From Candidatus Hadarchaeota archaeon (GTDB lineage Archaea > CAYQAE01 > CAYVLA01): a stretch of 64,000 nucleotides of DNA. The stretch is from the NCBI GenBank assembly GCA_964621445.1, contig CAZUNO010000013.1, positions 16,257-80,256 on the forward strand. The letters are read 5' to 3'. Shown one piece after another: positions 54,804 through 64,000 of the stretch (position 1 is the first letter of the stretch; each line of letters opens with the position of its first letter). The notes under the pieces are model-generated. The model did not search any database, was not told where the DNA came from, and was given only the letters and a program-made list of their open reading frames with translations. The position numbers and the translations under genes were made by a program.

Positions 54804-56240
54804 ATGAACGTTCTCTTTCTGATGTCCGATTCCCTTGCACCCCATTTCACCGGGGTCTATGGAGATGAGGCGGGCAGTACGCCCAATCTTGATCAGCTGG
54901 CCTCCCGGGGCGTCGTATTTGATAATGCCTACTGTAATTCACCGCTCTGCGTACCCTCCAGAGCGAGCTTGGTCACCGGGCGACACTGTTCAGACCTGAA
55001 CTGCTACGATAATGCCAGCGCGTTCTCATCCGAGTGGCCGACCATCGGCCACGCCCTAGGAGCTTCCGGGTTCGACGCTGACATCATCGGGAAGGCTCAT
55101 TTCGTTGGCCATGACCAGAAACACGGATTTGACTCAAGGATCTGTCTTCAAACCGATTACACAACCGAATATGACCCGCTCGAATACCTCTTGGCATATG
55201 ACTGGACCCAACCTTCAGGGGGCAACCCGGCCGGCCCAGAATGGATGGGCCCGAGCTACGTTAAATCAGAGGAATGGGATTACTACCCGAAACACTACGA
55301 CGCGGATGAGCAGATACATGAAGCAGCACTCTCATATCTAAAGAAGAAGAGCCCTGGTTCTGACCCCTTCTTCTGCTGCGTTTCCTACCACCAACCCCAC
55401 AACCCCTTTTGGATTCCGGAGGAGATTCGCGATCGCTTTAGTGACAAAGAGCTTCCCCTACCCCGAATCCCTGAAGAAGTCGAGACCCGGCACGGACCCA
55501 TGGACAAATGGCTGGATGACTTCCACTATGTGCCACAGGTCCGGGAGGAGATGATGGGGGAGGAAAACCTAAGGTGGCTATACGAGACCTATTATGGCAT
55601 GACATACGACATGGATCACAAGGTGGGCGAGGTTCTAGAACTATTGAAGCAGAGAGGGCTAGATCAAGACACCGCCATCGTTTTCTGTAGCGATCATGGA
55701 GATATGCTGGGCCATAGGGGGATGCTCCAGAAGAGATACTTCTACGAAAGGTCGGTGAGGGTGGTGCTGATTTTCTCCTTTCCGAATCATTGGAAGGAGG
55801 GGATTAGGATAAACACCCCGGTATCTTTGGTTGACCTTTACCCCACTGTGGCGGAAATGACCAGATCTGAGGCCCCGCCGGGACTTGCTGGCGAAAGCCT
55901 GATGCCCTCCATCGAGGAGGGAGAGGAGCCGGAGAAGAGGCCGGTTTTCTGTGAATATCACGGCGAAGGAGTTCATGCCCCCTGCATAATGACCAGATGG
56001 GGCGAATTCAAATATATCTACGTGCATGGCCACGAGGAAAGGCTCTACAACGTTGAAGAGGACCCGGACGAATATGTGAACCTGATTGATGATCATAGAT
56101 ACTCCAAGATAGTTTCTGATCTAAAACAGGTCACCCTCAAGCAGTTCGACCCGGACCGGATCACCGAACAGGCCCTTGCAAGCCAGCGTAATAGAAGATT
56201 CATCTATGAGCGGACGAAAGAGGAACAGAATCTGGACTAG
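54804..56240 (+). CDS. Cys-type (FGly) sulfatase, choline-sulfatase-like
   Basis: NVLFLMSD, SPLCVPSRAS (CxPxR), GKAHF and SDHGDMLG. Confidence 0.9.
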   Translation: MNVLFLMSDSLAPHFTGVYGDEAGSTPNLDQLASRGVVFDNAYCNSPLCVPSRASLVTGRHCSDLNCYDNASAFSSEWPTIGHALGASGFDADIIGKAHFVGHDQKHGFDSRICLQTDYTTEYDPLEYLLAYDWTQPSGGNPAGPEWMGPSYVKSEEWDYYPKHYDADEQIHEAALSYLKKKSPGSDPFFCCVSYHQPHNPFWIPEEIRDRFSDKELPLPRIPEEVETRHGPMDKWLDDFHYVPQVREEMMGEENLRWLYETYYGMTYDMDHKVGEVLELLKQRGLDQDTAIVFCSDHGDMLGHRGMLQKRYFYERSVRVVLIFSFPNHWKEGIRINTPVSLVDLYPTVAEMTRSEAPPGLAGESLMPSIEEGEEPEKRPVFCEYHGEGVHAPCIMTRWGEFKYIYVHGHEERLYNVEEDPDEYVNLIDDHRYSKIVSDLKQVTLKQFDPDRITEQALASQRNRRFIYERTKEEQNLD

Positions 56241-56251
56241 GACTCAATGGA

Positions 56252-57340
56252 TTATTGCTCCCAGCCCAGGTGCTTCTTCATAAGCCGGATGAAATGGCAG
56301 TAATTCGGGTAGCTAATGTCAGGGGGCATTCCGTGATCGCAACTTGGAATAAAACCTCCGTCCTCCACTAGCTGGGGAACCTTGCTTTCGAACTCCCTCT
56401 CCAGATGCTTTCCGCCCTTGGCGATCTTGGTTTTGTCTATTCCTCCCAGGAACGAAATCTTATGCCCGAGTTCCTCCCGTAATTTTAGAATATCATTTCC
56501 GGCCATTACTTCCACCGGACATGTGGAGTTGATTCCGGCCTCCAACCATACCGGTGCGATATCATGTATGTATCCGTCGGAGTCGAGCATGATTACTGGC
56601 ACGCCGTATTCTTTGAACCGTCTCACCCACTTCCTGTAGCCTGGAAGCATGAACTCCCTCATCATGTCCGGCGATATCATGGAACGTCCCTTATACGCCA
56701 TGTCCTCGTTGAGAATTATGTAGTCGACATCAACCTCTCTGAGTAATCTCCCGGTGACATCCAGGACGAATTCCGTCCAGAAATCCATCATCAAATGAAC
56801 TAGGTCGGGATCCTGGTGAAACATTATCGACAGGTTCTTTAGACCGGTCCAGTCCCTGGTACGCCAGAAAAGCGAGGGCAGGCTGAGACCAACGGGGTAA
56901 TCGCGATCCTCTAATGATTTGGCCTCCTGTTCCCAGAAATCCGGGTACCTGGCCGGGCTTCTTGGATTGTACCTCCACATCATATCCTCGAAATCTTCCC
57001 TCTTCTTCACGGGAAATTCATGCCATTTCCGGGTCACGAACCCTGGGGTAGCCGGTTCCTTCTCATATTCCACCACAGCCCCCATTTTATCCCTAATTAT
57101 CCTATGATTACCCTGGATCCGCAGAACCTTTTCCTCAAATGGGGGTAAAGGGTTGAAGTTCACGGGCAATCCCGAGGTTCGTTCCAGGCCGTGTATCCGG
57201 ATGTGACTATCATCCTCCGGAAGTCCCTCCTTATGCCAACGTCTAAGAGTCGACTCCCGAGGCCCGAAACGGTGGGTAAGAAACACCTTATCCGGATTTC
57301 CAAAATTCAGCGATCGGATAAACCGTTCTCTGCTATTCAT
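56252..57340 (-). CDS. Uroporphyrinogen decarboxylase/MtaA-CmuA family protein
   Basis: NSRERF, NEDMAYKGRSMISP, DSDG, GGIDK and PSCDHGMP. It is paralogous to the ORF at 45465. Confidence 0.85.
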   Translation of the reverse strand: MNSRERFIRSLNFGNPDKVFLTHRFGPRESTLRRWHKEGLPEDDSHIRIHGLERTSGLPVNFNPLPPFEEKVLRIQGNHRIIRDKMGAVVEYEKEPATPGFVTRKWHEFPVKKREDFEDMMWRYNPRSPARYPDFWEQEAKSLEDRDYPVGLSLPSLFWRTRDWTGLKNLSIMFHQDPDLVHLMMDFWTEFVLDVTGRLLREVDVDYIILNEDMAYKGRSMISPDMMREFMLPGYRKWVRRFKEYGVPVIMLDSDGYIHDIAPVWLEAGINSTCPVEVMAGNDILKLREELGHKISFLGGIDKTKIAKGGKHLEREFESKVPQLVEDGGFIPSCDHGMPPDISYPNYCHFIRLMKKHLGWEQ

Positions 57341-57441
57341 CCATGCAACAAATCACCCTCCCCTTTTAGTTCTTCCCCAAACCAGCGCCCAGCATTCCTA
57401 CAGAACACATATAGCTCCATTAACTACTCCTCAGGAGGAGA

Positions 57442-58293
57442 TTGGTCATCATGGAGAAGATGAAGGTTGCCGCCGTATCCACCCGGAACTGGATTGGAGA
57501 GCAGGATAGAAGCATAAAAAATATGGAAAAATGGGCCAAAAAGGCCGCCAAGAAGGGGGCCGAATTCATTCTTTTTCCTGAATTAGGGGTAAATGGATAT
57601 TTCCATTCTACGCACACATGGGATGTGGCTGAGCCGGTGCCCGGGCCATCCGTGAACCGGTTGATAGAGATGGCAGGGTGTCTGGACGTAATTCTCTGCT
57701 TCGGAATACTGGAAAAGGATGCCGACGTGGTCTATAACACCCAGGTCGTCGTTAACGGGGATGGTATCATGGGCAAGCAAAGGAAGATACACATGCCTGG
57801 AGACGAGTATCTATACTGGCGGGGGGGTTTTGAGATAGATACAATAGACATAGGAAAGGCCAGGATCGGGATAACCATCTGCTATGACTCCCTATTCAGC
57901 GAGATGGCCAGAACGCTGTTCTTCAAAGGCGCCGAGATTCTGGTCATGCCCTTCGCCTATAATACCGGGCCCCGGGCCCAATTTCCAGAGGAGGACCTGA
58001 CCGCTCTAACCTACAGGGTGCATTGCTATATCAACGGGGCATACGGCATACTGGCCAACAATGCCGGAAAACGGGAGAAAAGCGATATGGAGGACGAGGA
58101 GAGGACATTTCCGGGATGGGCGGGAATTATAGATCCCCACGGCAAGATCGCTGAATTCACCCGTGAAGACGGACGGGGGGAGGCCATGGCAATAGCGGAA
58201 TTAGATCCCGAAAAGATGGCGGAAAGGCGGAGAAACACATATTTCGTTCCCAGATGTCTAAGACCCGATCTTTATAGATCCATAAATGGGTGA
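57442..58293 (+). CDS. Carbon-nitrogen hydrolase (nitrilase superfamily)
   Basis: Catalytic triad motifs FPEL, RKIH and ICYD. Confidence 0.9.
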   Translation: MVIMEKMKVAAVSTRNWIGEQDRSIKNMEKWAKKAAKKGAEFILFPELGVNGYFHSTHTWDVAEPVPGPSVNRLIEMAGCLDVILCFGILEKDADVVYNTQVVVNGDGIMGKQRKIHMPGDEYLYWRGGFEIDTIDIGKARIGITICYDSLFSEMARTLFFKGAEILVMPFAYNTGPRAQFPEEDLTALTYRVHCYINGAYGILANNAGKREKSDMEDEERTFPGWAGIIDPHGKIAEFTREDGRGEAMAIAELDPEKMAERRRNTYFVPRCLRPDLYRSING

Positions 58294-58996
58294 TACCGTG
58301 TCCAGGAGAACAAAGATAGTTGCTCATCGTGGGGCCTCTACCCTGGCTCCCGAGAACACCATGTCCTCAATAGAAGCGGCTTTGAAATTGGACGTGGATA
58401 TGATCGAGGTTGATGTGAGAACAACGTGGGAAGGTGAAATCGTTCTAATGCATGATTCCGACGTCTCCAGGACTACCGACGGAAGCGGTCTGGTATCCGA
58501 GCTGACGATCCAGGATCTTGCCTCACTTGACGCTGGGTCCTGGTTTTCTCCTCGTTTCTTGAATGAGGAAATCCCGACCCTGGACCAGGCCCTAGAGGCG
58601 GTACGGGGAACCTGCGGGCTCTGTATCGAGGTCAAGGATGCGGCTCCCTCAGAAGTCCTGGCCCGGGTTCAGACCCACCAGTGTCTGGAACAGGTCGTGA
58701 TATTTGATTTTAATCATGAGCGTCTTTACGAGATGAGGGAGATATCCCCCGAAATCCAAACCCTGGCACTTGGTGTAACCCGGGAAAATCTTGGTGACCT
58801 AAACACGGATATTTTCGACGCCATCGGCTCCCATAAGTCCCAGGTTTGTAGTCCCCTGGTGGATTCCGCGCATGAACTTGGCCTAGAGGTTTTCGTGTAC
58901 ACCGTGGATGATGGGGTGAAGGCTAGGGAAATGATCTCAATGGGCGCGGACGCCATCATCACCAACGATCCCCAGAAAATTATGAAAACCCTCTAG
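58286..58996 (+). CDS. Glycerophosphodiester phosphodiesterase
   Basis: AHRGAS..APENT, IEVDV, MHD..V.RTTDG, IEVK and IITNDP. Confidence 0.93.
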   Translation: MGDTVSRRTKIVAHRGASTLAPENTMSSIEAALKLDVDMIEVDVRTTWEGEIVLMHDSDVSRTTDGSGLVSELTIQDLASLDAGSWFSPRFLNEEIPTLDQALEAVRGTCGLCIEVKDAAPSEVLARVQTHQCLEQVVIFDFNHERLYEMREISPEIQTLALGVTRENLGDLNTDIFDAIGSHKSQVCSPLVDSAHELGLEVFVYTVDDGVKAREMISMGADAIITNDPQKIMKTL

Positions 58997-59006
58997 GTAA
59001 AAACTG

Positions 59007-60299
59007 TCAATTTTCATACACTGCTATCTTGTTGCCGTCATCGAAGAAGGTGATTCGGGTACCTGGATCATCACCGATCCAGCGGTCAATGCACCGTTGA
59101 GGGTCATCGACCTTTCCCAGGTGGGCTCTCCGCAGGATCTCCCCGTCAAGAGCGGTGTATAATTCAATGGATTCAAGGCGCTGCAACATTCTAGCGAACT
59201 TATAGGCCTTGTGGCTATATAGCTGATATTCACCCTCAATTGATTTCAGCACATCCTCAATTGGTTCCGTTAATCGATCATAGAAATTCTGCCTGGCCTT
59301 CATGTTGGGTGCTATTCCATTCTCGCATTCCGACAGTAGAAGTACGCTCCCTGAATCCAATATGCAGTTCTTGGTCAATTCCAATGCCCTCTGGGCATTA
59401 TAAAGGCTGTCATCCTGTGGATATCCCCCCGGAGAGACAACGATGTGCCTACGGGGCTCCGCCTTGAAGGATGCTATCCGGTCAACAACCGAGATTCCAG
59501 CCCGGGTCACCTCATCGATACCTCCCGCCGAGGACCAAACCACGCCGTCATGGCTAGTGACCATGCCCAAGGTGAAAACCATCTTTTCCTTTGTGATCAT
59601 CCTCTCCGCCTCCAACATATCCGAGGCCAACGGATTGTCCCTTCTCTCGGCATCCGGGTGAAGGGGGTGAACTCCAAACGTTGAACGGGGGTCCAGAGCC
59701 ATGGAATGATTTGCCTCGATGGAACTGTAGCTGCATATTCCAGGAAGAAAGTCCTTGAGCGCGTTGGAATACCCCGCAAAGTAGTGATTCTTCATGTCAG
59801 CTGCTACAACATAGAGATCCGCCTCCAGGGCTACGGGATTAACCTCCACCGGGGTTCCCCTACTGGTTTCGCCCAAAAGCTCAAAATCGTTGGCCATGGC
59901 GTCATTAATACATAGCTCCGACAGGGAAACATCATTTAATTCGGCTAATCGCTCGATATCCGCCACGATCCTCCTGTTCCCCGGAGTCTGGGTATCATGG
60001 GACCCCGCAGCAACCAGGAAATTAACCTGTCTGGCACTGGACAGTCGACTGGTGAGTGCCGATATTATCTGGGCGTGTGGTTCAGCCCTGGTGTCGTCCT
60101 CTACCAGTACAACGACATCCAATCCATTACAGATATCCTCGAGTTTGCCTGTCCTGGAATTTTCGAGCGAACGTTCAAATGAGGTATGGGGTTCCTGGAC
60201 CTCCGACCCGGTCGGCTTCATTAACCCTCCAAAATTTTCCCGGGGTATCTCGAGATCAAGAGTCCCCCTTCCGTATTGAAGATTTACCTCCAAAAGCAA
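59007..60299 (-). CDS. Lactate racemase (LarA) family nickel-pincer enzyme
   Basis: DDTR, A.GSH, TSRGTPV, HYFAGYS..LK..LPG, GGYPQD..LY.AQRAL and EC..G. Confidence 0.85.
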   Translation of the reverse strand: MLLEVNLQYGRGTLDLEIPRENFGGLMKPTGSEVQEPHTSFERSLENSRTGKLEDICNGLDVVVLVEDDTRAEPHAQIISALTSRLSSARQVNFLVAAGSHDTQTPGNRRIVADIERLAELNDVSLSELCINDAMANDFELLGETSRGTPVEVNPVALEADLYVVAADMKNHYFAGYSNALKDFLPGICSYSSIEANHSMALDPRSTFGVHPLHPDAERRDNPLASDMLEAERMITKEKMVFTLGMVTSHDGVVWSSAGGIDEVTRAGISVVDRIASFKAEPRRHIVVSPGGYPQDDSLYNAQRALELTKNCILDSGSVLLLSECENGIAPNMKARQNFYDRLTEPIEDVLKSIEGEYQLYSHKAYKFARMLQRLESIELYTALDGEILRRAHLGKVDDPQRCIDRWIGDDPGTRITFFDDGNKIAVYEN

Positions 60300-60334
60300 A
60301 GATCTCCTATATTCTACTGCAGGATACTCCCTTT

Positions 60335-61633
60335 TTAAGGACTCCTTTTTTGACCTCTGGTCGTTGAAACCTCCCTAAAGGCCCTTCTTCGCACCATGAA
60401 GCTCCACAGAACGAACCCACAGATGAGGGTTGTTGAGGTAACCACGAGCCATTGAGTCACGTAGATCCATAGAAAGGTCCTGTCCTTGAGCTTCATTGCC
60501 TCCTCATTTACGGAATCGAGTTTTTCAAGGGCGATATCGATTTCCTCCTCCGCCCCTTCAAGGTCATTCCTCACGTACATTTCCTTGGACCTCTCCACGA
60601 ATCGATCGATTTCCCTTATGCTGGACTCCAATCCTGAGGTCTTTCCCCCGAACTTGGAGACGAAATCTATGATCGAGAAAGCCATGCTCCTCAATTCCTC
60701 ATAATTTCCATAGCTGACTCTCAGGTTGTGGAAAGCGGAAATGTCCTTTATGGGTTCCCTTCCAGTCGCGTACCTGATCCAGTTCACCAGAACATCCAGA
60801 CCATAGGGATTATCGCTGACATCATAGCCCTCACCTGGCATTTTCCAGCCCCACCACCCCATCCTCATGTTATCGCTCAGCGACCAGGTAATTCCCTTTC
60901 CGTACTCCCAGGAAATCAAGTAGGGCGTTTCGTGTGCCACATTCGGATGTGCTCCAACGGCCCACATCCATGTAAAAGCGCCCTGTCTCTTGAACATCAG
61001 GTATCCGCCACCCTTGGAGTACTTCTCCAAGCCCAAATCCAGAAAAGGGGTAAAAACCGGAGGGGCATCACGGTTAATCCTCACCTGAAAATTGCCGGAG
61101 TAGGCCATGCCGATTGCCGAACTCAGCTTCTCGCTATCGAGGCCGCCGCCGTATTCGACAACCTTCATTCCGTCCACCGGGAAGCACTGGGAGAGCTCCG
61201 ACAATACGAAGGGCAGAAACACAAAACGATGCTTGCTGAGGACACTGGCCATGGTTGTAGCACTCACCTCTCCTTCCTCTATTGCCTTTTGTACCCACCG
61301 TACACCATCGTCCCCGAAATAGGATATAACGGGCCCGTCGAGGATTAGAAAGTCGAACTCGGTGAGTCGGCTATAGCTTCGGGGAAAGTACATCCTGACC
61401 GATCGCCTTATCCTCTCCCCGAATTGGGCAGTCCATTCCCCGCTGAAAAAACGAGCCGGAACATAATGCCCTGTGATCCCGGGCTCAATTTTGAACCAGC
61501 TAATATATGGGGCCATGTCGCTTCCAACTGCCCCCAGGCACATCACCCTGATCGGAGGGGGTTCGGCCCAGCAAAGCACCGGATGAATTACCAGGGTAAT
61601 AATCAACGCCATTGCCAGGACATCATATCTCAT
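60335..61633 (-). CDS. Secreted GATase-like domain protein with helical stalk and C-terminal TM, paralog family C (copy 2)
   Basis: Signal peptide, RSVRMYFPRS, WEYGKG and FVSKFGG, ending WIYVTQW..TM..VRRRAFREVSTTR. Confidence 0.72.
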   Translation of the reverse strand: MRYDVLAMALIITLVIHPVLCWAEPPPIRVMCLGAVGSDMAPYISWFKIEPGITGHYVPARFFSGEWTAQFGERIRRSVRMYFPRSYSRLTEFDFLILDGPVISYFGDDGVRWVQKAIEEGEVSATTMASVLSKHRFVFLPFVLSELSQCFPVDGMKVVEYGGGLDSEKLSSAIGMAYSGNFQVRINRDAPPVFTPFLDLGLEKYSKGGGYLMFKRQGAFTWMWAVGAHPNVAHETPYLISWEYGKGITWSLSDNMRMGWWGWKMPGEGYDVSDNPYGLDVLVNWIRYATGREPIKDISAFHNLRVSYGNYEELRSMAFSIIDFVSKFGGKTSGLESSIREIDRFVERSKEMYVRNDLEGAEEEIDIALEKLDSVNEEAMKLKDRTFLWIYVTQWLVVTSTTLICGFVLWSFMVRRRAFREVSTTRGQKRSP

Positions 61634-61955
61634 TTCCCCTATCCCCGCTCCTCTCCCAGTATTAATTTCTAATTGCCGCGTCATCTCGACATTATCAATA
61701 TCCTGGTATCAAGAGGGAAAGCTTCCGCCTGCATAGCGGAACCCTTATTATCGACCTTTCCGGTTAGCAAATATTCAGCATCTTTCCAATCGCAAATTCA
61801 ACTCTTTAACACCGTTCGCCATGTTGGATCGAAAATTATGATGCGGTACCAAAATAAACCATCAAGCTCACCTGCAATAGCGCTTTTCCATCGCCAGCTT
61901 TCCAATTTCAGAGAGCCAAAAAGTCATGGACCAGTCCACAAATATGAATTGGAAA

Positions 61956-62609
61956 TTAATGGATATCCAGGGTGAGGCCGACGCCGCCCTTCATGGAGGA
62001 ATTCGGAAAACGGGTTAGGATCTCCTGTTTATGAACCGTGCAGTGGGTGGGAATTATGAGATCAAGACCCTCCAGAGCATCGTACTCCTCGAATTCGTGC
62101 ATGCCGCCAACAATTCCCCAGGGATCTCCAAAGGCGGATGCCGCCTCAAGGATCCGGGGTACACTGGGATGCGAGCAGCCGACAAGGACAAGAAGACCCT
62201 TTTTCGTCTCGATTACCAGCGACTGCTCCCTCGTTTCACTCCCCAACTCACCGGTTGTCCAAATTCCATCCCGTATACCCTGAGGTTCTTCAACCTCATG
62301 GATATCGAATCGGCAGGTTAGCTCCTTCTTCAAGTGGTTTGAGAATGACTTAGGTATCCACATCTCCCGATCCCTTATCTGAAGATGGCTGATTCCGCCG
62401 GCATGGTCCCAGTGAGAATGTGATAGCACCAGAAGGGTTATTTCCTCGGGGTTCTCCCCCATTTTCCTCATATTGGAAAGCAGGACACCGCCGTCCCAAC
62501 CGGTGTCAAATAAAATCTTCTCGTCTGGCATGGTTACCAGGGATGAGAAGCCCCACCCTCTTTTCAAACCCTCCCTTGCCTCGTTATCATACAGTATCTT
62601 CAGGTTCAA
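61956..62609 (-). CDS. MBL-fold metallo-hydrolase (COG1237-like)
   Basis: ILYDN, WGFS, LFDTG, SHSHWDHAGG, GCSHP, GGMH and PTHCT. Confidence 0.88.
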   Translation of the reverse strand: MNLKILYDNEAREGLKRGWGFSSLVTMPDEKILFDTGWDGGVLLSNMRKMGENPEEITLLVLSHSHWDHAGGISHLQIRDREMWIPKSFSNHLKKELTCRFDIHEVEEPQGIRDGIWTTGELGSETREQSLVIETKKGLLVLVGCSHPSVPRILEAASAFGDPWGIVGGMHEFEEYDALEGLDLIIPTHCTVHKQEILTRFPNSSMKGGVGLTLDIH

Positions 62610-62721
62610 ACTGCCACCAACTGGAAGTTGGAGATATACCAAATTCCATTTCTCACACACTTAAGTGTGCCTATGCACGTTATATGCCAAAAGCCTGCTA
62701 ATAAAACCCAGGGTCTACACC

Positions 62722-63507
62722 ATGATGAGCGTGTTATTGGCCTGCTTGGCCGTTATCCCACTAGCAGTAATCATGTCCATGGTTGGTAAGGGTGGAGGCA
62801 ACTTCTACGTGACCCTGCTTTTACTTGTAGGCATCTCCATCCACCAGGCGGCCACCTCGGCTCAATTCATGTTGATGACTACCTCCGCGGCTGCATTTCT
62901 GATTTACCAGAAAAACAAAACCGTGGACTGGAAGCTGGCCCTGGTGATAGATCCACCCACTGACATAATGGCATTTGTTGGCGGCTATTATGCCCATAAG
63001 GTTGGTGGCACGGAAATCAAGATTATTCTGGTATTTTTATTGGCAATATCGGGCTTCTTCATGCTACGACGCGTTAATTACAGGAAGAAAGATGAGGGGA
63101 AATTCGGGTATTGGTCCAGGAAATACGGTGAGCATGAATATACGGTCAATTTATGACTCGCCCTGCCGGTAACTACAGCTACTGGTTTCGTGGCTGGGAT
63201 GGTGGGAATATCCGGAGGTTCATTCAAAATCCCGCTCCTGGTTCTTGCATGCGGGGTCCCCATGCGCATAGCCGTTGGTACATCCTCTGCCATGGTTGCT
63301 GCGACAGCGCTTACCGGCTTCCTGGGACACACCATGGGTGTCGATCTAGATCTCAGCTTGGTCCTGCCGTTGGGCCTGGCCGCCCTTGTTGGTGGCCTTC
63401 TTGGTAGTCGATTCTCATTGGAGACCGACCCAAGAAGACTTAAGCAGATTTTTGCATATACGACATTGGCAGCCGCCATTCTCATCGCTTTTAAGACCCT
63501 TATCTAG
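62722..63507 (+). pseudogene. Sulfite exporter TauE/SafE family protein interrupted by in-frame TGA
   Basis: ORFs 62665..63156 and 63190..63507 are in the same frame and separated by one TGA (63154-63156). MVGKGGG and MVGISGG are the two TauE repeats. Confidence 0.75.
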
Positions 63508-63532: not shown

Positions 63533-63548
63533 GGGAAAATATTTAACT
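63533..63548 (+). promoter_or_regulatory. BRE/TATA-like promoter of the tRNA pair
   Basis: GGGAAAATATTTAACT lies about 30 nt upstream of the tRNA-Asn 5' end. Confidence 0.55.
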
Positions 63549-63576: not shown

Positions 63577-63765
63577 GCCGCCGTAGCTCAGTAGGTAGAG
63601 GGGTTCCAAGCTGGAACCCGCCTGAAGCGCATGGCTGTTACTCGGTTTCCATTTGGAGCCAAGCAGACACCATGTGGTCACGTGGGCAGGGTTTCCTTCC
63701 CACGCCACAAGCAGGTTCGAGCCCTACCGTTGGAGCGCTGTCTCGGCGGGGCTAAGCCGGCGGCG
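63577..63765 (+). tRNA. tRNA-Asn(GTT) with four introns (63599-63625, 63641-63668, 63680-63710, 63726-63755)
   Basis: The spliced exons give the 73-nt cloverleaf GCCGCCG TA GCTC AGTAGGTA GAGC G CATGG CTGTTAA CCATG TGGTC GCAGG TTCGAGC CCTGC CGGCGGC G. Each intron has BHB/BHL geometry. Confidence 0.93.
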
Positions 63766-63777
63766 CCTTTCGAGAAA

Positions 63778-63872
63778 GGGCCCGTAGCTTAGTTGGTAGA
63801 GCGCCAGGCTCATAACCTGGACGGTGCGATGCACCGGGGGAATGGTCTAGGGTTCAAGTCCCTGCGGGCCCA
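63778..63872 (+). tRNA. tRNA with CAT anticodon, probably tRNA-Ile2, with non-canonical intron (about 63821-63842, position 43/44)
   Basis: GGGCCCG TA GCTT AGTTGGTA GAGC G CCAGG CTCATAA CCTGG [intron] TGGTC TAGGG TTCAAGT CCCTG CGGGCCC A. The GGGCCCG acceptor stem is Ile-type. Confidence 0.88.
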
Positions 63873-64000
63873 CACTATCCTTAATTCAATAAAATATCAC
63901 CGGGCGTAACTCAGGATAAAAATGGGGAACTAGGGCCATACCCTACCTCTTCATTATAGAAGAAATCTGAATGGGAAGATCTTTAATAAACCTCCTAAAG

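What the first reader, a model, noticed from the sequence alone, without database searches (positions are those of the whole stretch)
63577..63765. tRNA-Asn(GTT) gene split into five exons by four BHB-type introns
Seen in sequence: exons 63577-63598, 63626-63640, 63669-63679, 63711-63725 and 63756-63765 (22+15+11+15+10 = 73 nt) join into a fully paired cloverleaf. The introns sit at 22/23, 37/38, 48/49 and 63/64 and are 27, 28, 31 and 30 nt, so 116 of 189 nt are intron. Each junction has a 4-bp exon-intron helix (AGGT/GCCT, CTGT/GCAG, GTGG/CCAC, AGCC/GGCT), 3-nt bulges cut after the second base, and an internal hairpin. Established: archaeal EndA cleaves BHB/BHL motifs, and the multi-intron tRNAs I know of (Thermofilum, Pyrobaculum) carry at most three introns. 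Inference: four introns may equal or exceed the reported maximum. Three of the helices use exon bases from the D-loop, the anticodon-stem/variable-loop junction and the T-arm, so splicing likely needs ordered refolding and a relaxed-specificity endonuclease. Standard annotation would probably miss this gene.
Basis: partly seen in the sequence, partly recalled or inferred. Interest (0 to 1): 0.88.

Follow-up and report, generated by a model that had tools for sequence, protein, structure and literature searches.

The report
Four-intron archaeal tRNA-Asn gene
This is a real and conserved tRNA-Asn gene cut into five pieces by four short introns of the archaeal cut-and-rejoin type, an unusually fragmented but not unprecedented tRNA gene from a barely studied archaeal lineage.

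Summary
Joining 63577-98, 63626-40, 63669-79, 63711-25 and 63756-65 gives 73 nt with 21 of 21 cloverleaf pairs, which ARAGORN calls tRNA-Asn(gtt). ARAGORN and Rfam miss the unspliced gene.

- My own genome-wide intron-aware search recovers the same four junctions with a perfect score. The reversed genome gives nothing at score 25 or more.
- All four junctions have a 4/4 central helix, 3-nt bulges and a flanking helix.
- Five other natural copies keep all four introns. Exon columns vary at 1 of 73 and intron columns at 60 of 119, with compensatory changes in the intron hairpins.
- 66 uninterrupted metagenomic tRNA-Asn genes match the joined exons without indels.
- It is the only Asn gene found in the genome.
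- The genome encodes two splicing endonucleases that carry the broad-specificity loops, plus RtcB.

The "record" claim is overtaken. Reviews say the maximum is three, but a 2026 preprint reports up to five in Asgard archaea. This genome's GTDB phylum, as held, has only five species genomes, so the lineage is new for such genes. Splicing itself was not observed.

The parts
63533..63546 (+). Likely archaeal promoter: a purine-rich BRE-like block followed by an A/T-rich TATA-like box. It ends 30 nt before the mature 5' end.
   Evidence: Read. The same 14-nt block stands 30 nt (G002) and 32 nt (G001) upstream of the orthologous genes, while the spacer between it and the gene differs. That it acts as a promoter is inferred from its position and conservation.
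63577..63598 (+). Exon 1: tRNA positions 1-22 (acceptor 5' strand, U8, D-stem 5' strand, D-loop, G22).
   Evidence: 21 of 22 columns are invariant in 6 natural copies; position 17 varies in G001.
63599..63625 (+). Intron 1 (27 nt) at 22/23, in the D-stem 3' strand.
   Evidence: Central helix 4/4, outer helix 2 bp, inner helix 3 bp in the strict register. Local motif energy -13.7 kcal/mol. The inner hairpin stays paired through one- and two-sided changes (helix 4).
63626..63640 (+). Exon 2: positions 23-37, including the whole anticodon GTT.
   Evidence: Invariant in 6 copies.
63641..63668 (+). Intron 2 (28 nt) at the canonical 37/38 site.
   Evidence: Central helix 4/4. The outer helix is the anticodon stem. 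Local energy -15.7 kcal/mol. The inner hairpin shows compensatory changes (helix 7). A variant strain contig differs here at 6 bases plus 1 insertion.
63669..63679 (+). Exon 3: positions 38-48 (anticodon-stem 3' strand and variable loop).
   Evidence: Invariant in 6 copies.
63680..63710 (+). Intron 3 (31 nt) at 48/49.
   Evidence: Central helix 4/4, no outer helix, inner helix 6 bp (an HBh' form). The motif fold equals the local MFE, -19.5 kcal/mol. Four inner-helix pairs change on both sides among the copies (helix 9).
63711..63725 (+). Exon 4: positions 49-63 (T-stem 5' strand, T-loop, three bases of the T-stem 3' strand).
   Evidence: Invariant in 6 copies.
63726..63755 (+). Intron 4 (30 nt) at 63/64, in the T-stem 3' strand.
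   Evidence: Central helix 4/4 in all 6 copies, outer helix 1 bp, inner helix 7 bp here (helix 10). Local energy -9.6 kcal/mol against -16.2 unconstrained, the weakest of the four motifs.
63756..63765 (+). Exon 5: positions 64-73 (end of the T-stem, acceptor 3' strand, discriminator G73). No CCA is encoded.
   Evidence: Invariant in 6 copies.
63766..63777 (+). 12-nt spacer to the next tRNA gene. The two genes are probably transcribed together.
   Evidence: The Asn-Met tandem is kept in G001 and G002. Co-transcription is inferred.
63778..63873 (+). Neighbouring tRNA-Met(CAT) gene, with one non-canonical 22-nt intron at 43/44 (about 63821-63842).
   Evidence: ARAGORN, Rfam 63.6 bits, my solver. 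The intron hairpin varies with compensatory changes among the orthologues.

Best explanation
This is the genome's functional tRNA-Asn(GUU) gene. It is probably transcribed from a conserved promoter about 30 nt upstream, likely together with the tRNA-Met gene 12 nt downstream, as a 189-nt precursor. In that precursor each of the four intervening sequences folds with the last bases of its upstream exon into a bulge-helix-bulge motif: a 4-bp central helix flanked by two 3-nt bulges on opposite strands.

The archaeal splicing endonuclease cuts in both bulges of each motif, eight cuts in all. The RtcB ligase then joins the five exons into a 73-nt tRNA. The D-arm and T-arm can form only after introns 1 and 4 are gone.

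The genome encodes two endonucleases of the kinds known to accept relaxed motifs at non-canonical sites, so either or both could do the cutting.

Shown here: the gene structure, the motifs, their conservation and covariation, and the presence of the enzymes. Inferred: transcription, the actual cuts and ligations, which enzyme acts, and any order of removal.
For: 1. The joined exons give 21 of 21 cloverleaf pairs and carry U8, A14, G18-G19, U33, T54-T55-C56, A58, G53-C61 and the G15-C48 pair. ARAGORN calls the joined sequence tRNA-Asn(gtt).

2. My genome-wide search allows jumps only at bulge-helix-bulge junctions. It finds exactly these four junctions with the top score of 26. The reversed genome gives 0 loci at 25 or more among its 14 loci.

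3. All four junctions have a 4/4 central helix plus a flanking helix. In the orthologues G001 and G002, together with the window, 11 of 12 central helices are 4/4.

4. Six natural copies exist: the window, G001, G002, L073, L147 and L148. All keep four introns at the same sites. Exon columns vary at 1 of 73 and intron columns at 60 of 119 (Fisher 7e-15; the copies are related, so this figure is descriptive). Pairwise intron identity is 66-92%.

5. 94.8% of structure cells pair, against 34-48% when partners are slid by 1-3 columns. Eight pairs change on both sides, and 0 of 500 shuffles reach this.

6. A variant contig from another study differs inside the gene at 7 bases plus 1 insertion. All of these lie in introns 2 and 3 and none in exons.

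7. 66 uninterrupted tRNA-Asn(GTT) genes from metagenomes differ from the joined exons at only 5-11 of 72 positions, with no indels. This is a motif-free check of every junction.

8. No other Asn gene was found in the 96%-complete genome: none by ARAGORN, by blastn of the joined sequence, among the 38 Rfam hits, or in two passes of my search.

9. Enzymes. One gene matches the epsilon-type endonuclease of ARMAN-2 (PDB 4fz2) over residues 16-387, E 6e-74. It keeps the catalytic Tyr/His/Lys, Arg275, Trp384 and the specificity-loop Lys161 (residue roles from PMC3488258). A second gene has a C-terminal unit like the Aeropyrum pernix catalytic subunit, with the catalytic triad and the Lys44-equivalent loop lysine. 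RtcB is present.

10. The promoter-like block is conserved in the orthologues.
Against: No RNA evidence exists: no RNA run is listed for this DNA, so transcription, cutting and ligation are unobserved.

The all-motif fold is not the predicted minimum-energy fold (-76.9 against -89.4 kcal/mol). The motif of intron 4 is 6.6 kcal/mol above its local optimum.

Intron 1's best inner hairpin is one base out of register with the strict motif.

In G001 the central helix of intron 1 has only 3 of 4 pairs.

My search uses the splicing motif to place introns, so it is partly circular. Items 4, 6 and 7 above are the motif-free checks.

The genome is a draft (89 contigs, 96% complete, 4% contamination) and 10 of 38 Rfam tRNA hits were not resolved. 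A second Asn gene in unassembled DNA cannot be excluded.
Confidence: 0.92

Rival explanations
1. It is a decaying or silent tRNA-Asn pseudogene. The interruptions are insertions that are no longer removed, and the working Asn tRNA is encoded elsewhere.
For: Splicing was not observed. The genome is a draft with 4% missing by marker count, and 10 of 38 Rfam tRNA hits were not resolved by my solver.
Against: The exons are invariant in 72 of 73 columns across six copies whose introns are only 66-92% identical. All 21 stem pairs are intact. The junction helices are kept in 23 of 24 cases and the intron hairpins covary. A promoter-like block is conserved. No other Asn gene was found by four methods.
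Confidence: 0.03
2. The locus encodes a different tRNA: a class II tRNA-Ser(GGA) with a long variable arm and three introns. My relaxed search also returned this reading with the top score.
For: One search lists a score-26, three-intron, 89-nt solution at the same ends. No Ser(GGA) gene was resolved elsewhere in my census.
Against: The reading needs an 11-nt D-loop, a D-stem with two G-U pairs and a 5-nt micro-exon. It places the invariant exon 2 inside an intron and the variable intron-1 hairpin in the anticodon arm. It exists only in the window's copy: the same search on G002 gives the Asn solution alone, and on G001 all score-26 solutions read GTT. ARAGORN on the joined Asn exons gives a standard tRNA.
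Confidence: 0.01
3. [quoted passage not shown] For example, intron 4, with its weak motif, might be removed by another route or removed inefficiently, so the gene yields little mature tRNA.
For: Intron 4's motif fold is 6.6 kcal/mol above the local optimum and its outer helix is 1 bp. Intron 3 has no outer helix.
Against: The central helix of intron 4 is 4/4 in all six copies (helix 10). Forms with a central helix and an inner helix only are accepted by the broad-specificity enzyme types (PMC3488258 and PMC6379350, passages read), and both types are encoded here. No group I or group II intron or other RNA family matches in the window.
Confidence: 0.03
4. It is a chance resemblance or an assembly artefact.
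For: None found.
Against: The reversed-genome control gives no solution at 25 or more. The junction motif rate is 56 of 7316. The same architecture occurs in contigs of independent assemblies and studies.
Confidence: 0.005

Closest known systems
Multiple-intron tRNA genes of Thermoproteales (Pyrobaculum, Thermofilum, Caldivirga and others; Sugahara et al. 2007/2008, as cited in PMC4033280 and PMC8450103)
   Same: Short introns at canonical and non-canonical sites. Each is bounded by a bulge-helix-bulge or relaxed motif, removed by a broad-specificity endonuclease, with several introns per gene.
   Different: The stated maximum there is three introns per gene (PMC4033280 passage; PMC8450103 passage); here there are four. 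Those organisms use a two-subunit (alpha-beta)2 enzyme. This genome has a single-chain enzyme with a crenarchaeal-type catalytic unit plus an epsilon-type enzyme. The lineage is also different: its GTDB phylum, as held, has five species genomes.
[quoted passage not shown]
   Same: Many non-canonical introns, several per gene, including D-arm introns that standard annotators miss. They sit at canonical bulge-helix-bulge motifs. Up to five intervening sequences in a single gene are reported, so four is within the known range.
   Different: The load is different here: about 1.2 introns per resolved tRNA gene (43 in 35) against 2.2 in those families. The lineage and the endonuclease set differ too; the preprint describes two paralogues consistent with (alpha-beta)2. 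Supplementary tables of both papers, which would list any individual four-intron genes, could not be opened.
Three-intron nuclear tRNA-Ile(UAU) of the red alga Cyanidioschyzon merolae (PMC3728597)
   Same: Introns in the D-stem, at 37/38 and in the T-loop, each with a bulge-helix-bulge motif. Partly spliced intermediates were shown by RT-PCR, with the D- and T-arm introns removed before the anticodon-loop intron (passages read). This is the best experimental model for how a multiply interrupted precursor is processed.
   Different: It is eukaryotic, has three introns and has experimental proof. Here there are four introns and no RNA data.
Epsilon2-type splicing endonuclease of Candidatus Micrarchaeum acidiphilum ARMAN-2 (PDB 4FZ2; PMC3488258, PMC12397907)
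   Same: The gene on contig C9 aligns over nearly the full length (E 6e-74) and keeps the catalytic triad, Arg275, Trp384 and the specificity-loop lysine.
   Different: The sequence has diverged and the lineage is different. It co-occurs with a second endonuclease gene. Neither activity nor dimer formation was tested.
Split and tri-split tRNA genes (Nanoarchaeum equitans, Caldivirga maquilingensis; named in PMC4033280)
   Same: The tRNA is assembled from several pieces through bulge-helix-bulge cuts.
   Different: Those pieces lie on separate transcripts. Here all five exons are collinear on one strand within 189 nt.

Membership tests
tRNA gene, isoacceptor Asn(GUU) | A cloverleaf of four stems with standard lengths after removal of the intervening sequences. 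| tested here: met
   21 of 21 Watson-Crick pairs in 7/4/5/5-bp stems, 73 nt. ARAGORN calls it tRNA-Asn.
tRNA gene, isoacceptor Asn(GUU) | The universally conserved tRNA bases (U8, A14, G18-G19, U33, G53, T54-T55-C56, A58, C61) and the anticodon GUU. | tested here: met
   All are present in the joined sequence. My solver's conserved-base score is the maximum. The anticodon lies whole within exon 2.
tRNA gene, isoacceptor Asn(GUU) | Sequence likeness to uninterrupted tRNA-Asn genes. | tested here: met
   66 intron-less Asn(GTT) genes from metagenomes differ at 5-11 of 72 positions with no indels.
tRNA gene, isoacceptor Asn(GUU) | The mature tRNA is made and charged with asparagine. | not testable with these tools
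   No RNA run is listed. This needs tRNA sequencing or a northern blot.
Archaeal bulge-helix-bulge (endonuclease-dependent) tRNA intron | A 4-bp central helix between the four exon bases before the 5' bulge and the four intron bases before the 3' bulge. | tested here: met
   4 of 4 pairs at all four junctions in the window. In six copies, 23 of 24 helices are fully paired (helices 3, 6, 8, 10).
Archaeal bulge-helix-bulge (endonuclease-dependent) tRNA intron | Two 3-nt bulges on opposite strands, each holding a cut site after its second base. | tested here: met
   One search lists the bulges for all four junctions. For intron 1 a 4-nt 5' bulge is an alternative if the longer inner hairpin forms.
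Archaeal bulge-helix-bulge (endonuclease-dependent) tRNA intron | At least one flanking helix of 2 bp or more (outer exon helix h or inner intron helix h'). | tested here: met
   Intron 1: h 2, h' 3. Intron 2: h is the anticodon stem. Intron 3: h' 6. Intron 4: h' 7. Introns 3 and 4 lack a usable outer helix, so they are the HBh' form.
Archaeal bulge-helix-bulge (endonuclease-dependent) tRNA intron | The organism encodes the splicing endonuclease and an RNA ligase. | tested here: met
   Two endonuclease genes. RtcB at 609 bits.
Archaeal bulge-helix-bulge (endonuclease-dependent) tRNA intron | The intron is actually excised at the predicted sites. | not testable with these tools
   This needs an in-vitro cleavage assay or RNA sequencing.
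Epsilon2-type splicing endonuclease (the gene on contig C9) | A three-unit protomer of about 390 residues that aligns over the whole ARMAN-2 enzyme. | tested here: met
   Query residues 4-383 align to chain residues 16-387 of 4fz2_A, E 6e-74.
Epsilon2-type splicing endonuclease (the gene on contig C9) | The catalytic Tyr236/His251/Lys282, the RNA-binding Arg275 and Trp384, and the specificity-loop Lys161. | tested here: met
   All six align to identical residues. The residue roles come from PMC3488258.
Epsilon2-type splicing endonuclease (the gene on contig C9) | Homodimer formation and cleavage of relaxed motifs. | not tested
   No complex prediction or assay was run.
Group I / group II intron or other catalogued RNA | A match to an Rfam family. 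| tested here: not met
   The only Rfam match in the window at gathering score is the neighbouring tRNA-Met. The introns are 27-31 nt, too short for self-splicing introns (established knowledge).
Split or permuted tRNA gene | The pieces lie on separate transcripts or in permuted order. | tested here: not met
   The five exons are collinear on one strand within 189 nt.

The most novel reading that the evidence does not exclude
This small, unnamed archaeal lineage holds five species genomes in its phylum as held here. NCBI labels for its closest records disagree: Hadarchaeota or Thermococci. It may be a further, independent hot spot of tRNA-intron accumulation beside Thermoproteales and Asgard archaea.

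Its tRNA-Asn gene would be the most fragmented cis-spliced tRNA gene known outside Asgard archaea, kept unchanged through the divergence of at least three genera. The tolerance may rest on an unusual pair of endonucleases in one genome: an epsilon-type enzyme and a single-chain enzyme with a crenarchaeal-type catalytic unit. Both enzymes are found in all four genomes of the family. The full-length epsilon-type gene was not found in the less interrupted sister family.
Probability: 0.45. Interest if true: 0.62.

Novelty: new member of a known kind. Interest (0 to 1): 0.5.

Why it matters
It matters for annotation. Two of the standard detectors available here miss the only tRNA-Asn gene of this genome, which would therefore look unable to decode AAC/AAU. 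At least six other tRNA genes of the same genome are also missed by the Rfam model.

It matters for biology in three ways.
- Very high fragmentation of a tRNA gene (61% intron) is stable over long times in a lineage outside the two known intron-rich groups.
- It provides a natural substrate with four different motif forms in one precursor, suited to testing how splicing endonucleases handle several sites and how five exons are kept together for ligation.
- It links this fragmentation to a genome that carries two broad-specificity endonuclease types, which bears on the proposed co-evolution of enzyme type and intron load.

It does not set a record for intron number.

Tried and rejected
**RNA evidence.** No RNA holder is listed for this DNA, so nothing can be said on expression. 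Laying four DNA runs showed no joint, meaning no intron-less DNA allele in those contigs. Contigs drop rare variants, so this shows presence only.

**Taxonomy.**
- The record titles of the closest endonuclease loci disagree: Hadarchaeota twice, Thermococci once.
- The protein atlas gave only endonuclease clusters from Methanobacteriota and Thermoplasmatota.
- The phylum as held has five genomes.
- I did not name the lineage.

**Sister family G004.**
- Its tRNA-Asn was not found among 24 of 30 resolved Rfam hits.
- It was not found upstream of that genome's tRNA-Met either.
- The intron state of Asn outside family f1 is therefore unknown.
- G003 has no match to exon 1 at up to 3 mismatches. It is a fragmented assembly, so this does not show absence.

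**Intron origin.** The four Asn introns resemble neither each other nor the 27 other introns compared. The best normalised alignment score involving an Asn intron was 0.23. The tRNA-His intron at the same site and of the same length (22/23, 27 nt) is unrelated in sequence. This gives no support for copying between genes.

**Rejected reading.** The class II Ser(GGA) reading of the locus is rejected.

- I rewrote them with a staged T-arm filter and per-locus time guards.
- 4 locus pairs in the strict pass, 12 in the relaxed pass and 8 in the reversed control hit the 2-second guard and were not resolved.

**Limits of the census.**
- 10 of 38 Rfam hits were not resolved.
- Several expected anticodons were not found, for example Cys GCA, Pro TGG and GGG, Ser GGA, and possibly Trp CCA.
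- More heavily interrupted genes may therefore remain hidden.

**Tools and papers not available.**
- tRNAscan-SE and SPLITS are not available here.
- Supplementary tables of PMC11291895 and of the 2026 preprint were closed; they may list individual four- or five-intron genes.
- Searches for prior reports.
- No peer-reviewed paper in the held library states an archaeal tRNA gene with four introns. The phrase search found none of its 15 listed papers (of 28 that held the terms) relevant.
Full report
**Observation.** Joining 63577-63598, 63626-63640, 63669-63679, 63711-63725 and 63756-63765 gives 73 nt. All 21 cloverleaf pairs are Watson-Crick, the anticodon loop carries GTT entirely inside exon 2, and the usual conserved tRNA bases are present. 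ARAGORN calls the joined sequence tRNA-Asn(gtt).

On the unspliced DNA, ARAGORN finds only the neighbouring tRNA-Met. The Rfam tRNA model finds only that gene in the window. In the whole genome it gives 38 hits at E up to 10, and none is this locus.

**More than chance.** I wrote a search that reads a tRNA cloverleaf through a "splice graph". A jump is allowed only where a canonical bulge-helix-bulge junction exists: a central helix of 4 of 4 pairs plus flanking helices, and an intron of 10-130 nt.

- Run over both strands of the 3.2-Mb genome, it returned solutions at 36 loci.
- 26 of them scored 25-26 of 26 with 0-4 introns and spans up to 188 nt. The other 10 scored 24 or less.
- The same pipeline on the reversed, uncomplemented genome gave 14 loci, all scoring 22-24, with 3-7 "introns" and spans of 285 nt or more. 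None reached 25.
- Within the 189-nt stretch, only 56 of 7316 arbitrary junction pairs meet the motif rule.

**The junctions.**

| Intron | Site | Central helix | Flanking helices | Local motif energy (kcal/mol) |
|---|---|---|---|---|
| 1 | 22/23 | 4 of 4 | outer 2 bp, inner 3 bp | -13.7 |
| 2 | 37/38 | 4 of 4 | outer = anticodon stem | -15.7 |
| 3 | 48/49 | 4 of 4 | inner 6 bp, no outer | -19.5 (equals the local MFE) |
| 4 | 63/64 | 4 of 4 | inner 7 bp, outer 1 bp | -9.6 (6.6 above the local optimum) |

Each junction also has 3-nt bulges cut after the second base. Intron 1 also has a longer, slipped inner hairpin that would make the 5' bulge 4 nt.

Each motif uses only its own upstream exon and its own intron. 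All four, plus the acceptor stem, fit into one nested fold of -76.9 kcal/mol, against an MFE of -89.4.

So no order of removal is forced by the structure. What is forced is that the D-stem (which needs 22-25) and the T-stem (which needs 61-65) form only after introns 1 and 4 are out.

My inference is that cutting and ligation happen one intron at a time. If all eight cuts were made at once, the inner exons would be held only by 2-5 bp. In Cyanidioschyzon merolae, a three-intron tRNA-Ile shows ordered intermediates (PMC3728597, passages read).

**Conservation.**
- Two genomes of the same family (G001, G002) carry the Asn-Met tandem with the same exon lengths, 21 of 21 cloverleaf pairs, and 4/4 central helices. 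The exception is intron 1 of G001, which has 3 of 4.
- Three of those loci are further copies with four introns at the same sites and an identical mature sequence: L073, L147 and L148.
- Over the six copies, 1 of 73 exon columns varies against 60 of 119 intron columns. Pairwise intron identity is 66-92%.
- On the all-motif structure, 94.8% of cells pair, against 34-48% for partners slid by 1-3 columns. Eight pairs change on both sides, mainly in the inner hairpins of introns 2 and 3, and 0 of 500 shuffles reach this.
- A variant contig from another study spans the gene. It differs inside the gene at 7 bases and 1 insertion, all in introns 2 and 3.
- A 14-nt BRE/TATA-like block at 63533-63546 recurs 30-32 nt upstream of the gene in G001 and G002, although the spacer differs.

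**A motif-free check.** The 80 metagenome loci break down as follows:

| Loci | What they are |
|---|---|
| 66 | Uninterrupted tRNA-Asn(GTT) genes, differing from the joined exons at 5-11 of 72 positions with no indels; in the closest copies listed the differences fall mainly in the anticodon and T stems |
| 3 | The four-intron copies |
| 1 | An Asn gene with one intron |
| 2 | tRNA-Thr genes |
| 8 | Not resolved (two of them truncated) |

This fixes every exon boundary without using the splicing motif.

**Uniqueness and genome context.** No other Asn gene was found by any of four routes:
- ARAGORN on the genome: 42 calls, none Asn.
- blastn of the joined sequence: it hits only its own exons.
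- The Rfam hits: 28 of 38 resolved, none GTT, and the other 10 read as other isotypes by ARAGORN.
- Two passes of my own search.

My search also found seven tRNA genes that the Rfam model misses: Asn, Ser(GCT) and Gln(TTG) with three introns each, and Pro(CGG), Gln(CTG), His(GTG) and Ala(GGC) with two each.

Among the 35 resolved genes there are 43 introns. The counts are 8 genes with none, 15 with one, 9 with two, 2 with three and 1 with four. Asn is the most interrupted gene found, and its introns (27-31 nt) are among the longest. The census is incomplete, as set out under Tried and rejected.

**A rejected alternative.** The relaxed pass also gave a class II "Ser(GGA)" reading of the same locus with three introns. 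It needs a 5-nt micro-exon and an 11-nt D-loop. It puts invariant sequence into introns, and it is absent from G001 and G002, where only the Asn reading scores 26.

**Enzymes.**
- Contig C9 encodes a protein that aligns over 16-387 of the ARMAN-2 epsilon-type endonuclease (4fz2_A, E 6e-74). It keeps Tyr236, His251, Lys282, Arg275, Trp384 and the specificity-loop Lys161. The residue roles are taken from PMC3488258 and from the abstract of PMC12397907.
- Contig C2 encodes a 373-residue two-unit protein. Its C-terminal unit matches the Aeropyrum pernix catalytic subunit (3p1z_B, E 4e-43), including the catalytic residues and the lysine aligned with Lys44 of the Crenarchaea-specific loop.
- Both loop lysines are tied to broad substrate range in the literature (PMC3488258, PMC6379350; passages read).
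- RtcB is present.
- Both endonuclease genes occur in all four genomes of the family. The sister-family genome G004 gave only one weak partial match to the epsilon-type query.

**Lineage.** The phylum as held contains five species genomes, G000-G004. It is therefore neither Asgardarchaeota nor Thermoproteota as sampled here. The record titles of the closest loci carry inconsistent labels. The DNA occurs in microbial-mat and hypersaline-lake metagenomes.

**Comparison with what is known.**
- Peer-reviewed sources give three as the maximum number of introns in an archaeal tRNA gene (PMC4033280; PMC8450103).
- Asgard genomes were reported in 2024 to have introns in 92-95% of tRNA genes, with over half of the genes holding several (PMC11291895, passages read).
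- A 2026 preprint reports 2.2 intervening sequences per gene in three Asgard families and "up to five in a single gene". It also finds D-arm insertions often missed by tRNAscan-SE (10.64898/2026.10.13.758758; abstract and sections 1, 2.1 and 2.6 read).

The finding is therefore a new member of a known kind. It is above the textbook maximum, within the newest reported range, and in a lineage where the phenomenon has not been described in the papers I could search.

**Verdict.** It is a real, conserved and probably essential tRNA-Asn gene with four endonuclease-type introns (confidence 0.92). Splicing itself is inferred, not shown. Interest is moderate (0.5). The record claim falls away, but three things are worth following up: the lineage, the six-fold conservation of all four introns, and the pair of endonucleases.

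Noticed in passing
window 63778-63873 (+): The neighbouring tRNA-Met(CAT) gene has a single non-canonical 22-nt intron at 43/44 (about 63821-63842), not at 37/38. ARAGORN reports the gene as 96 nt without marking an intron. The intron hairpin varies with compensatory changes in G001 and G002.
   Followed up: partly
G000 contigs C2:82.9-84.0 kb (-) and C9:28.6-29.8 kb (+); loci L021 and L022: One genome holds two different splicing-endonuclease genes. One is an epsilon-type three-unit protein. The other is a two-unit protein whose catalytic unit is of the crenarchaeal type with the specificity-loop lysine. Both occur in all four genomes of the family. The sister family gave only a weak partial hit to the epsilon-type query.
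   Followed up: partly
G000 C2:53323-53460 (-), C7:6787-6933 (-), C2:103575-103685 (-), C2:128851-128958 (-), C17:48520-48637 (+), C3:156738-156860 (+): Six further tRNA genes are missed by the Rfam tRNA model and were found only by the intron-aware search: Ser(GCT) and Gln(TTG) with three introns each, and Pro(CGG), Gln(CTG), His(GTG) and Ala(GGC) with two each. ARAGORN mis-called the Ala gene as Gly.
   Followed up: partly
G000 C17:48520-48637 (+): tRNA-His has an intron at the same site (22/23) and of the same length (27 nt) as Asn intron 1, but the two sequences are unrelated.
   Followed up: yes
G000 C3:156738-156860 and C19:3831-3953: The T-arm introns of tRNA-Ala(GGC) and tRNA-Ala(CGC), at 53/54 and 29-31 nt long, are the most similar intron pair in the genome (normalised score 0.48). 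They probably descend from one intron in a duplicated gene.
   Followed up: no
window 63533-63546 (+): A 14-nt BRE/TATA-like block is identical in three genera, while the 30-32 nt between it and the gene differ.
   Followed up: partly
G000 C25:27108-27198 (+): ARAGORN reads this tRNA as Trp(CCA) with an intron after position 37. My solver reads it as Arg(CCT) with the intron one base further on. The anticodon depends on the exact cut site, and it was not settled.
   Followed up: no
window 54804-63485: The genes upstream of the tRNA pair include a sulfatase, a carbon-nitrogen hydrolase, a glycerophosphodiester phosphodiesterase, a LarA-like protein and a metallo-beta-lactamase-fold protein. None is related to tRNA processing.
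   Followed up: no
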